A stretch of 64,000 nt of DNA, from NCBI GenBank assembly GCA_951406725.2, contig OX597819.1, positions 74,276,001 to 74,340,000 of the forward strand, written 5' to 3'. This document shows positions 6,342-30,879 of this stretch, piece after piece. Below the pieces are notes generated by a model, which saw only the letters and a list, made by a program, of their open reading frames with translations, had not been told where the DNA came from and did not search any database. The stretch comes from Octopus vulgaris. Its lineage: Eukaryota. The translations under genes were made by a program, and so were the position numbers. The stretch's first letter is position 1, and every line of letters begins with the position of its first letter.

Positions 6342-6499
6342 ACTGGCAATATATATTTGTCCTGTGTATCTCAGTCTGGATTTCATTCGTCCAGGGGGCA
6401 TCGATAAAACCTACAGCGATACCAATAAATAACATAAAAGCACAACTGGATACGGCTCGCAAGGCCTCAATAGCCGTGAACACTACTTTGCACTCTTTT
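6342..6499 (+). CDS. Gene A exon 2 (signal peptide and first predicted helix)
   Basis: ttttcccgtag| acceptor, TTT|gtaagt donor; hydrophobic stretch YIFVLCISVWISFVQG followed by ASIKP; same phases as gene B exon 2. Confidence 0.8.
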
Positions 6500-28000: not shown

Positions 28001-30879
28001 CATACATACATATGTGGTTATTATATCACAACTCGTTAGTGACCATGCTGACTTCTCCATATATATTTAGCCTGGTTTATAATCGACTGATTTGATTACA
28101 GTATATTACCCAAACATTTAGTCTGCTAATGTTGCAGACTCCCTCACCATTCTTGGACAAAATGATGTAAATCCATATTTATATTCACAGAATAGCGCAA
28201 TGTTTTTTACTGCAGCCCATTACCGGTTCTCCCAATTTATTACCGTTTCCTATAAACATTGTCTTGTCACTGAGGTATACTCAAGACGCACAAAACTCTT
28301 GCTTTGCTACAGCACAAGACCCTAAAATGGGTGGCCTAACTCTGCCGTGAAGAGACGGGATTAGAGAATTAAATCAGATTATCCTCTTTGTGTTAAAAGT
28401 TATCATTAGCTTGGTTGATCCTTCGAAAACTTAGTCTTTCGATTTGCTTGTTACCCACTTAAAAAACAATAATTTCATTATGGTGTTTTCCACTCTAAGG
28501 CCACCGAATCATTGGGACTTTTCCAATCCCAGATGAAACCCACCAGAGTTATAGAGTTGCGGGAAAATGACCGCTTCTTTTCTTCTTCAAATCAACCCCA
28601 ATGATGAAGAAAATATTGAGTGTTAGAGGCGTCGACCTAATGAAACAATCGCTAGTTGTAAAAATACTGAAATATTCATTAAAAACATACCTCGAAATCG
28701 TCGTAGTTTGTGAAATTCAAATCTTCTCTCAGGTGTAATTCGGGAAAAGTTTTATTCGTTAAATTGGTTAGGTGCTCGATAAAATCTTTACATTCAACAC
28801 CGGGAAAGTACCACATGTTGTCACACTAGAAAATATAATATACATAATATATAATATGTAATATTTAATTACATAATAATAGCAACAGAATAAATGTTGG
28901 TTGGTTGATTTCTCCATTTCCACTTTACATGGCATGGAAGAAGAAGAGGGAGAGAGAGGGAGAAAGAGATGTATATATATATATATAGAGAGAGAGACAG
29001 ACAGACAGACAGACAGACAGACAGACAGACAGAGACAGACAGATAGACAGACAGACAGGATTAACGTAACAGGTGCAGAGTTAAGTGCACATATCAGGCT
29101 TGGTGGAAGGCAATGAGTAAAGGAACGTCACATACACATACAAAATGAAAAAGAATCATAGAGGAAGGGGAATAAATGACGAAGTAGTTGACTGTTAGTG
29201 AAAAAAAGCCTCTAAAATAGTCAATATTTATCGTAATGAAGACGGCGAGCTGGCGGAAACGTTAGCACGTCGAGCGAAATGCTTAGTGGTATGTCGTCCG
29301 TTTTTACGTTCTGAGTTTAAATTCCCCTGAGATCGATTTTGTCTTTCATCCTTTCGGGGTCGATAAAATAAGCACCAGTTGTATTAATCAATTATCTCCA
29401 TCCCGCAAAATTTCAGGCCCTGCGTTTTTCGTAGAAAATTATATTTATAGTAGTGAATATATATTCCGAAGATACGCTTCAAAGCACGCTGGTATTTGCA
29501 AAGTTAAGAATTTATAGCAATGTGTTGCAAATGAATTTATCACTAAAATTGCTACGATTATATTGGTTTCAAATTTTAGCACAAGGCCAGCTATTTCGGG
29601 AGCGGGTGGGGCGGGGGAAGCGAGTCGATTACATTCTATTTATTTTATAGACCCCGAAAGGATGAAAGGCAAAGTCGATCTCAGCGGAATTTGAACTCAG
29701 AACATAAAGACAGACGAAATACCACTAATCATTTTGCCCGGCTTGCTAACGTCTCTGCCAGCTTTCTTCATATCATCCATACCATGGATGATATGAAGAA
29801 ATATGGCAGACATATCATAGTTATTAAGTAAGGTTTTTATCAAGTTAGTGGCAAAACTATACTTCCAAAGTTATCTATCGTACAACAGGTAAAACCTCAG
29901 TTAATTGCATAATAATAATTACATCATAATTAGCTAAACAAGGTAAAAATCGATTAGAGGTGTTTCATGTATTTTATCTCTCAATAATTAGGAGTTGTTT
30001 TTATAAGAATTTTTATCAAGATATAATTATTGATTTGAAAAAGTCTTAGCAATTGGTAAATTAGAAAGTTGTAGAAGACAGGACATGGTCGTAGAGGGAT
30101 GAAAAATGATGCCTTTGACTTTGGTGTCGTTGGATCTCGTAACCTGAAAACTTAACAAAATACGATGAGGTAATTGGTTCAGTATTTTGCTATTCCTGAC
30201 AAACAATCGAATCATCCAGCATAGTAATTTCCGATATTGCCATCGATCATACACAATCGATTAAATTGTTCCCCAGTATATTACTAGTGACTGGTCAATC
30301 GTTCACGGAAGGATAAAGCCCTACTTACTGACTTATCGCCCAGAAAGGATTAATGACAAAGGTCAAATCTGGTGAGATTTGAACTTAGAAAATGAATTAA
30401 ATCAAAATACCACAAGGTATTTCGTTGGTCCCTCAACCGCCATTCCATAATTATTATTATTATTTTAACATATAATTATTACTTACATAATACTGCAATA
30501 CGTTTCCAACTACAATTTTTGTAGTATGAGAGGTTTCTTGCACAATATGGAAAAGTGCATCTGAGGACCACGAAGAATTAGTTTCAGAAGGAATTGGTGA
30601 ACCAAAGACTTGTAAAGCATAACTGCATAGCAATACGACGGTGATGAAACGGCAAACTGGAACGATACAAGCATAATGCAAAGATTATTTTTACTTCGAT
30701 ATGTGTCTGTATAAGTGTATGTGTGTGTTTGTGTGTGTGTGTGTGTGTGTGTGTGTGTGTGTGTGTGTGTGTGTGTGTGTGTGTCACTAAAAAGAAAAAC
30801 AAACAGCAGAAAGAAAAATCATTGTTACTTGCTGAGAAGAAAATAAAGTACAGAAAGCGAAAAATCTGATCTTACCCAT
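24904..30879 (-). CDS. Gene B: secreted 232-aa six-cysteine protein, putative long-chain helical cytokine-like; complement(join(24904..25062,27375..27605,28691..28825,30487..30656,30876..30879))
   Basis: Complete open model with canonical junctions: [236 protein letters not shown] box upstream and poly(A) signal downstream. Confidence refers to the gene model. Confidence 0.92.
26192..26288. repeat. (AAG)n microsatellite in gene B intron 4
   Basis: Directly visible. Confidence 0.95.
27375..27605 (-). CDS. Gene B exon 4 (231 nt)
   Basis: cttcctcaatctag| ... ATG|gtaagt; same length as gene A exon 4, four conserved Cys. Confidence 0.92.
28691..28825 (-). CDS. Gene B exon 3 (135 nt; not in ORF track)
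   Basis: ttttctag| ... GAG|gtatgt; same length and Cys positions as gene A exon 3. Confidence 0.9.
29241..29440 (+). mobile_element. SINE family 2 (Nin/Deu-domain-like core) in gene B intron 2
   Basis: ggcgagctggc.gaaacgttagc head and ctttcatcctttcggggtcgataaaataag core; inverted partner at 29570-29765. Confidence 0.75.
29570..29765 (-). mobile_element. SINE family 2 copy, inverted relative to 29241-29440
   Basis: gaccccgaaaggatgaaaggcaaagtcga...gctaacgtctctgccagct. Confidence 0.75.
30487..30656 (-). CDS. Gene B exon 2 (signal peptide and first predicted helix)
   Basis: tatcgttccag| ... TAT|gtaagt; signal-peptide-like [23 protein letters not shown]. Confidence 0.88.
30876..30879 (-). CDS. 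Gene B exon 1 coding part (ATG G)
   Basis: Minus strand reads ccacaATGG|gtaaga; phase 1 fits exon 2. Confidence 0.8.

What the first reader, a model, noticed from the sequence alone, without database searches (positions are those of the whole stretch)
6342..30879. Pair of hidden paralogous genes encoding candidate invertebrate long-chain four-helix-bundle (IL-6/LIF/G-CSF-like) cytokines
Seen in sequence: two spliced genes with signal peptides, ~230 aa, exons 3/4/5 of identical length (135/231/159 nt), gap-free alignment with 64/174 hand-counted identities, and intron phases 1-0-0-0 after a tiny first coding exon (ATG G in gene B). Established knowledge: five exons with phases 1-0-0-0, a very short exon 1 and a ~200-aa secreted product describe IL-6, IL-11, G-CSF and growth hormone/prolactin genes. 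Such ligands diverge too fast for BLAST, and invertebrate JAK/STAT ligands other than Drosophila Unpaired are poorly known. Inference: four amphipathic segments fall where helices A-D are expected (end of exon 2; start of exon 4; end of exon 4; end of exon 5, RWFxxxTLHxLxxxLNxV). A long AB loop with FP occupies exon 3 and a long CD loop opens exon 5. This would be a cephalopod/molluscan helical cytokine family, plausibly ligands of a gp130/Domeless-type receptor.
Basis: partly seen in the sequence, partly recalled or inferred. Interest (0 to 1): 0.92.

Follow-up and report, generated by a model that had tools for sequence, protein, structure and literature searches.

The report
Octopus IL-6-like cytokine gene array
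These two octopus genes belong to a family of secreted proteins that have the predicted shape and the exon layout of interleukin-6/G-CSF-type cytokines and sit at the end of a tandem array of about two dozen near-copies, which makes them strong candidates for the JAK/STAT signalling ligands reported as missing in molluscs.

Summary
The two paralogs share exon lengths 135/231/159 and 64 of 174 identities. Gene B matches an uncharacterised O. sinensis RefSeq protein at 231 of 232 residues.

Its top 13 matches among 48,161 PDB chains are all long-chain class I cytokines. G-CSF scores Z 17.0 and IL-11 Z 16.5.

Two corrections:
- Gene A is the last of 29 four-exon copies in a 310-kb array, 20 of them complete. 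The count may be inflated by near-identical inverted duplications.
- The window's copy A lacks the family's promoter and exon 1, so it is probably 5'-truncated.

Named sequence relatives are all cephalopod. A Cys-rich B-C insert sets the family apart from IL-6. A 2026 survey found IL-6R, JAK and STAT in molluscs but no ligand. Receptor binding, expression and function were not tested.

The parts
5962..6341 (+). Remnant of intron 1 of gene A; similarity to sibling copies stops here, and no family promoter or exon 1 lies upstream
6342..6499 (+). Gene A exon 2: signal peptide and helix A (phase 1 to phase 0)
7419..7553 (+). Gene A exon 3 (135 nt): AB connection with two conserved Cys, two mini-helices and the FP motif
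7686..7916 (+). Gene A exon 4 (231 nt): helix B, Cys-rich B-C insert, helix C
10474..10632 (+). Gene A exon 5 (159 nt including TAA): CD loop and helix D
31062..31067 (-). TATAAA box 188 nt before the ATG of gene B, also present in the B-type paralog at C6:131.35 Mb
30876..30879 (-). Gene B coding part of exon 1 (ATG G, phase-1 donor)
30487..30656 (-). Gene B exon 2: signal peptide and helix A
28691..28825 (-). Gene B exon 3 (135 nt): AB connection
27375..27605 (-). Gene B exon 4 (231 nt): helix B, Cys-rich insert, helix C
24904..25062 (-). Gene B exon 5 (159 nt including stop): CD loop and helix D
24539..24544 (-). Candidate polyadenylation signal AATAAA of gene B (untested)

Best explanation
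A cephalopod family of long-chain class I helical cytokines. Shown: five-exon genes with phases 1-0-0-0, an N-terminal hydrophobic leader, and a mature chain of about 205-210 aa predicted to fold as an IL-6/IL-11/G-CSF/LIF-type four-helix bundle with six conserved cysteines and several N-glycosylation sequons. Inferred: the proteins are secreted, glycosylated and disulfide-bonded. They bind a Domeless/gp130-like class I cytokine receptor, dimerise it and activate JAK and STAT. The A-type genes, with a kB-like element just upstream of the TATA box, are probably induced by infection or injury. Their expansion to roughly 20 or more copies would serve dosage or fine diversification. Gene B is an intact, low-copy paralog. 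The window's copy of A is probably a silent 5'-truncated member of the array.
For: Gene models and phases; RefSeq match to B at 231 of 232 residues. AF2 model of P0004 (207 of 226 identical to gene A): pLDDT 86.3, pTM 0.79, helices 32-59, 97-129, 153-175 and 201-229. Ranks 1-13 of 48,161 chains are long-chain class I cytokines, and the first non-cytokine is rank 28 at Z 7.7. G-CSF: Z 17.0, rmsd 2.9, 164 of 171 aligned; IL-11: Z 16.5, rmsd 3.0, 161 of 169. The Atlas model of the B-type paralog P0002 (pTM 0.76) matches a cardiotrophin-1 cluster at TM 0.65/0.71, and the feature neighbours of both types are IL-6, IL-12a, LIF and GH-family clusters at 0.90-0.93. Introns fall in the leader, at the end of helix A, early in helix B and just after helix C. 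[quoted passage not shown] GGGATTTTCC occurs in 26 of 29 full promoter matches. pN/pS is 0.44 among the 20 distinct coding sequences. IL6R-like receptor, JAK and STAT co-occur in molluscs (PMC13203501).
Against: No sequence-level link to any cytokine: Pfam gave none, the PDB profile search gave 0 hits at E<=10, and identity in the structural matches is only 8-17%. Foldseek found no match at E<=0.001, best 0.014. The Atlas structural row is below its bar for naming a family. The B-C connection is about 23 residues and Cys-rich, unlike the short vertebrate loop (the vertebrate state is recalled). There is no conserved aromatic at the position that corresponds to IL-11 W147. The models are of O. 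sinensis relatives, not of the window's own spliced proteins. The kB motif had no background control, the copies are not independent, and gene B has no such motif within 700 nt. No AU-rich enrichment follows the A-type stop codons (1.2 against 2.2 in shuffles).
Confidence: 0.7

Rival explanations
1. An endocrine hormone of growth hormone/prolactin or leptin type. It has the same fold, gene layout and receptor class, but acts on growth, reproduction or metabolism rather than inflammation.
For: Placental lactogen, GH and prolactin also match (Z 13.2, 11.0 and 13.9). A cluster with PF00103 Hormone_1 on 24% of members ranks 2nd and 3rd by features. Amphioxus has a GH-like member (PMC9010856). Prolactin genes form tandem arrays in rodents (recalled).
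Against: G-CSF, IL-11, CNTF and LIF score 2-3 Z units higher than prolactin. A-type promoters carry a kB-like element.
Confidence: 0.12
2. A cytokine-fold protein co-opted as a bulk secretion (skin, sucker, saliva or egg coat). The array gives quantity, and the protein no longer signals through an own class I receptor.
For: There is a very recent array of 29 copies with a median 95% nucleotide identity. Exons 3 and 5 diverge fast between B and its paralog (dN/dS 1.36 and 1.04). Canonical site III residues are lacking. The proteins carry 5 and 7 N-glycosylation sequons.
Against: Several low-copy paralogs at 28-42% identity persist in three Octopus species, Argonauta and a cuttlefish, as expected of a signalling family. 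Exon 4 is constrained (dN/dS 0.31).
Confidence: 0.1
3. A helical signalling protein that reached this fold independently or uses another receptor (a CRLF3-type or class II receptor), so it is not a Domeless/gp130-type JAK/STAT ligand.
For: There is no sequence similarity to vertebrate cytokines, and the cysteine pattern and B-C insert are distinct. Interferons also match at Z about 10.
Against: Fold, size, leader and four intron positions all agree with long-chain class I genes. Interferons are described with five helices and phases 0-0-0-0 (10.64898/2026.05.30.728932).
Confidence: 0.08

Closest known systems
Vertebrate IL-6/gp130-family cytokines and G-CSF (IL-11, IL-6, CNTF, LIF, CLCF1, CT-1, G-CSF)
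   Same: Size, leader and predicted long-chain four-helix bundle (Z 14.8-17.0, rmsd 2.4-4.0, 144-166 aligned residues). Five exons with an intron in the signal-peptide region.
   Different: 8-17% identity and no Pfam hit. Six conserved Cys, four of them in and just after a long B-C insert. No FxxK motif and no conserved site III aromatic. A tandem array of about 20-29 copies.
Growth hormone / prolactin / placental lactogen
   Same: Same fold class (Z 11-13.9); five exons with phases 1-0-0-0 (recalled).
   Different: Lower structural scores and a different cysteine pattern.
Drosophila Unpaired 1-3 (ligands of Domeless)
   Same: Protostome secreted ligands modelled as four-helix bundles (PMC5385356).
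   Different: Annotated homologs were reported only in Drosophila species. No Upd sequence appeared among the 17 relatives found. No direct comparison was made.
Unnamed invertebrate clusters in the ESM Atlas (Mollusca, 114 members, PF00489 IL6 on 11%; Arthropoda, 56 members)
   Same: Nearest neighbours by features, 0.92-0.93 at the same length of about 230 aa.
   Different: No sequence link was detected. They were not aligned, so kinship is a lead only.
Oyster IL-12p35-like protein (recalled, paper not held) and oyster CgIFNLP (class II-like; PMC9756803)
   Same: Earlier claims of helical cytokines in molluscs.
   Different: Not compared here. No bivalve protein was among the named sequence relatives.

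Membership tests
Long-chain class I helical cytokines | About 200-aa chain with an N-terminal signal peptide and no membrane anchor | tested here: met
   230-232 aa with a hydrophobic N-terminal helix and no later segment as strong; hydropathy only, SignalP not available
Long-chain class I helical cytokines | Four long helices with long AB and CD connections, superposable on the up-up-down-down bundle | tested here: met
   Predicted model of P0004; 164 of 171 G-CSF residues align at rmsd 2.9, Z 17.0; ranks 1-13 of 48,161 chains
Long-chain class I helical cytokines | Five exons, tiny first coding exon, phases 1-0-0-0 (IL-6/G-CSF/GH type) | tested here: met
   Gene B, array copies, paralog at 124.77 Mb. 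IL-6 five-exon layout from PMC13081863; vertebrate phase numbers are recalled. The window's copy A lacks exon 1.
Long-chain class I helical cytokines | Binds a class I cytokine receptor and signals through JAK/STAT | not testable with these tools
   No receptor sequence was obtained, so no complex was folded
IL-6 proper (orthology) | Pfam IL6 (PF00489) match | tested here: not met
   No hit
IL-6 proper (orthology) | Canonical four-cysteine configuration | tested here: not met
   Six conserved Cys at P0004 positions 57, 68, 130, 140, 146 and 159; IL-6 has four (PMC13081863)
IL-6 proper (orthology) | Conserved synteny (TOMM7 and neighbours) | not tested
   Neighbouring genes beyond the array were not mapped
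LIF/CNTF/CT-1/OSM subfamily | FxxK site III motif at the start of helix D | tested here: not met
   Motif per PMC9601804. The presumed equivalent column 202 holds Phe in 3 of 21 rows and column 205 holds Arg in 13 of 20. The register is inferred from the range ends, assuming no gap in helix D.
Class II helical cytokines (interferon/IL-10) | Five helices, phases 0-0-0-0 | tested here: not met
   Four long helices and phase 1 at intron 1; best interferon Z 10.3 against 15.5 for IL-11
Unpaired family | Sequence or structural match to Upd1-3 | tested here: inconclusive
   No Upd among the hits; no direct comparison was possible

The most novel reading that the evidence does not exclude
These are the missing JAK/STAT ligands of cephalopods. 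They descend, with intact intron positions, from the same bilaterian ancestral gene as IL-6, G-CSF and growth hormone. In Octopus one branch has expanded into an NF-kB-inducible array of 20 or more working copies that parallels a vertebrate interferon cluster and may drive immunity or regeneration.
Probability: 0.42. Interest if true: 0.88.

Novelty: new variant of a known kind. Interest (0 to 1): 0.76.

Why it matters
A 2026 BLAST-based survey that lists O. bimaculoides and O. sinensis in its species table reports IL6R, JAK and STAT in molluscs but no IL-6-family ligand in any invertebrate except insect Upd. It concludes that the ligands were added in vertebrates (PMC13203501). Named, expressible candidates with the right fold and gene structure make that claim directly testable. 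If they signal, the long-chain cytokines would date back to the protostome-deuterostome ancestor. They would also give cephalopod immunology, wound healing and regeneration a first candidate JAK/STAT ligand. The array raises its own question of why Octopus multiplied one cytokine about twentyfold.

Tried and rejected

Folding and sequence searches: single-sequence AF2 of P0002 failed (pLDDT 39.5) and was not used. Pfam and the PDB sequence profile gave no cytokine hit. A search for longer or fused relatives of 407-2000 aa found none among 7,999 candidates, which is weak evidence. The viral fold library had no match at E<=0.001; the best rows were herpesvirus proteins.

Receptor and pathway hunt in the own genome: PF09240, PF09067, PF25552 and PF02864 STAT gave nothing usable. 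The PF06328 hit is an Ig adhesion-type exon. The PF17971 and PF18377 hits are noise. Three single fn3 hits resembled PTP, neogenin, titin or sevenless proteins; 150 of 326 fn3 candidates were scored. These searches are insensitive to split exons and do not show absence. No complex prediction was sent because no receptor was in hand.

Gene A start: the candidate exon 1 at window 4622 was rejected because it lies in a palindromic repeat also found several times in L021.

Regulation and selection: AU-rich element enrichment was rejected. Positive selection between B and its paralog was not shown (overall dN/dS 0.71, bootstrap 0.48-1.10). The family tree has weak deep branches and was used only to note that the A-type sequences of three Octopus species group together.

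Literature: ten searches listed no paper describing these genes or a cephalopod IL-6-like ligand. The library lacks most subscription journals, and a recalled oyster IL-12p35-like paper was not held.

Full report
OBSERVATION. I rebuilt both genes from the sequence. Gene B (minus strand) has five coding exons: 30876-30879, 30487-30656, 28691-28825, 27375-27605 and 24904-25062. Its splice sites are canonical, its phases are 1-0-0-0 and it encodes 232 aa. Gene A (plus strand) has exons 6342-6499, 7419-7553, 7686-7916 and 10474-10632. Exons 3-5 are 135/231/159 nt in both genes and align without gaps at 64 of 174 identities. The score is 353 against a maximum of 60 in 500 shuffles. O. sinensis RefSeq XP_036359387.1, named 'uncharacterized', is the same model as B and differs at 1 of 232 residues. 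A B-type paralog at C6:131.35 Mb keeps B's upstream region (84.6% over 1,100 nt), the TATA box and the ATG G exon.

THE PAIR IS THE END OF AN ARRAY. Exon searches of the own genome gave 36, 46 and 31 matches among 45, 55 and 39 candidates, most of them just left of the window. In 394 kb of contiguous sequence there are 32 A-type exon groups. Of these, 29 have all of exons 2-5, spread over C6:73.977-74.287 Mb and mostly in alternating orientation. Twenty-four have open frames and usable splice sites, and they encode 20 distinct proteins at a median 95% nucleotide identity. Twenty-one of the 24 also have a promoter and exon 1 match, and one of those has lost the exon 1 donor, which leaves 20 complete copies. 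Pooled pN/pS is 0.44, though the pairs are not independent. Two inverted blocks of 39 kb (99.1% identical) and 21 kb (99.5%) exist, and one ends at a 100-N gap. These may be recent duplications or duplicated haplotypes, so the true number may be several copies lower. More distant paralogs lie at 71.08, 71.15, 71.17, 124.01 and 124.77 Mb of the same contig. The one at 124.77 Mb also shows phases 1-0-0-0.

GENE A OF THE WINDOW IS PROBABLY 5'-TRUNCATED. The family's first coding exon is 10 nt long and encodes Met-Asn-Asn plus one base, matching the start of the O. sinensis models. The promoter with exon 1 has 34 matches in the region. None lies within 20 kb upstream of gene A, and the nearest on its strand is about 81 kb away and belongs to another copy. 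Similarity to siblings ends near window 5962. The only good alternative start exon, at 4622, lies in a repeat. In-frame ATGs exist in the retained intron end, so another start cannot be excluded.

RANGE. A full HMMER scan of 1.84 billion representatives with P0002 found 17 proteins at E<=0.001. Fourteen are named, all from cephalopods (three Octopus species, Argonauta hians, pharaoh cuttlefish) and all uncharacterised; three are unnamed. One unnamed protein, P0009, runs through the equivalents of exons 3-5 on a 2.8-kb contig. That suggests a spliced transcript, but I could not check its source type. No longer fused form was found (weak evidence).

FOLD. Pfam and PDB sequence searches gave no cytokine hit, and single-sequence AF2 failed. 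With a 32-row alignment, AF2 on P0004 (207 of 226 identical to gene A) reached pLDDT 86.3 and pTM 0.79. The model has a leader helix at 3-20, helix A at 32-59, mini-helices at 61-65 and 68-78, an extended stretch to 96, helix B at 97-129, a Cys-rich connection at 130-152, helix C at 153-175, a long loop, and helix D at 201-229. Foldseek gave no hit at E<=0.001, but its top ten rows are all LIF or G-CSF. The full VIA-align search over 48,161 chains ranks 13 long-chain class I cytokines first: IL-11 (Z 15.5, rmsd 2.7, 155 of 165), CLCF1 15.2, LIF 15.1, IL-6 14.8, CNTF 13.8 and others. Other helical cytokines fill ranks 14-27, and the first unrelated protein is at Z 7.7. The tool warns that Z under about 13 can be a common arrangement for bundles; the top nine rows exceed that. 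Realignment of Foldseek's own hits gives G-CSF Z 17.0 (rmsd 2.9, 164 of 171), IL-11 16.5, CNTF 16.4 and prolactin 13.9. For the B type, the Atlas model of P0002 (144 of 227 identical to B) matches a cardiotrophin-1 cluster at TM 0.65/0.71, below the Atlas's bar for naming a family. Feature neighbours of both types are IL-6, IL-12a, LIF, G-CSF and GH-family clusters, plus unnamed mollusc and arthropod clusters. The introns fall in the leader, at the end of helix A, early in helix B and just after helix C. [quoted passage not shown]

DIFFERENCES FROM VERTEBRATE MEMBERS. Six cysteines are conserved (57, 68, 130, 140, 146, 159). The last four are present in every aligned row with a residue there (22, 21, 22 and 22 rows). 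Three disulfides are likely, but this is inference. The B-C connection is long. Taking the range ends as gap-free, IL-11 W147 maps to position 202, which is mostly Ile, Val or Thr here; Arg is at 205 in 13 of 20 rows. There is no FxxK motif. The family therefore works like, and structurally belongs with, the long-chain class I cytokines, but it cannot be filed as IL-6, LIF or GH proper.

REGULATION. GGGATTTTCC lies about 35 nt upstream of the TATA box in 26 of 29 full promoter matches. That this is an NF-kB site, and that IL-6 has a similar one, is recalled. The copies are not independent and no background control was run. B has no such motif within 700 nt. AU-rich elements are not enriched. 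Between B and its paralog, exon 4 is constrained (dN/dS 0.31) while exons 3 and 5 are not (1.36 and 1.04). Synonymous sites are few and the overall interval includes 1.

MECHANISM. Shown: gene structure, family, array and predicted fold. Inferred from the families involved: secretion, glycosylation, binding to a Domeless/gp130-like receptor, and JAK/STAT activation. More weakly inferred: induction by infection or injury. I could not retrieve a receptor from this genome and no reads were laid, so binding and expression are open.

LITERATURE. [quoted passage not shown] PMC9601804 (passages) found no invertebrate matches to LIF, OSM or CT-1. PMC13081863 (first sixth of the text and passages) needed structure search to find IL-6 even in lamprey. 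Passages only were read of PMC12162339, PMC9010856, PMC9756803, PMC13736523, PMC13524488, PMC4172062, PMC5385356, 10.64898/2026.10.26.761873 and 10.64898/2026.05.30.728932; supplements of the preprints were not seen. Ten searches listed no description of these genes. An oyster IL-12p35-like protein is recalled from a paper that is not held. An Atlas mollusc cluster carries PF00489 on 11% of its members, so molluscan helical cytokines are not wholly unheard of.

VERDICT. Real. The fold assignment is well supported (about 0.9) and the ligand role is likely (about 0.7). It is a new variant of a known kind. Interest 0.76.

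Noticed in passing
G000:C6:74064921-74104137 against 74142823-74181957, and 74123487-74144214 against 74182058-74202782: Inverted near-identical blocks (99.1% and 99.5%), one abutting a 100-N gap: recent duplication or assembly artefact.
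   Followed up: partly
G000:C6:73989927-73994878 and window gene A: O. sinensis LOC118763923 resembles the first plus-strand copy of the array in exon 2 and the window's gene A in exons 3-5. This suggests expansion by unequal crossing-over inside one ancestral gene, or a collapsed assembly in that species. That first copy has lost both exon 3 cysteines.
   Followed up: no
Proteins P0003, P0023, P0025, P0026: Automatic O. vulgaris gene models join exons of neighbouring copies or read through introns and lack the signal peptide, which hides the family in the proteome.
   Followed up: partly
L055:5076-8322 and L056:1570-4843 (C6:71.15 and 71.17 Mb): Two inverted paralogs whose helix D region runs into a long tandem repeat of a coding-like unit; probably degenerate.
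   Followed up: no
window 1800-4420 (-), 8822-9439 (+), 54450-61000: Non-LTR retrotransposon remnants: a reverse transcriptase upstream of gene A (PF00078, E 1.8e-26), a 3' fragment in intron 4 of A, and several more copies to the right.
   Followed up: partly
window 4501-4900; L021:6035-6405, 7607-7923, 9171-9492: Palindromic repeated element (MITE-like) with several copies just upstream of the window.
   Followed up: no
G000:C6:109758570-109758731 and C2:137013530-137013700: Weak, degenerate exon 4-like matches outside the clusters.
   Followed up: no
G000:C6:74116666, 74130358, 74195659 (exon 4 donors): Three array copies use a GC donor after exon 4.
   Followed up: no
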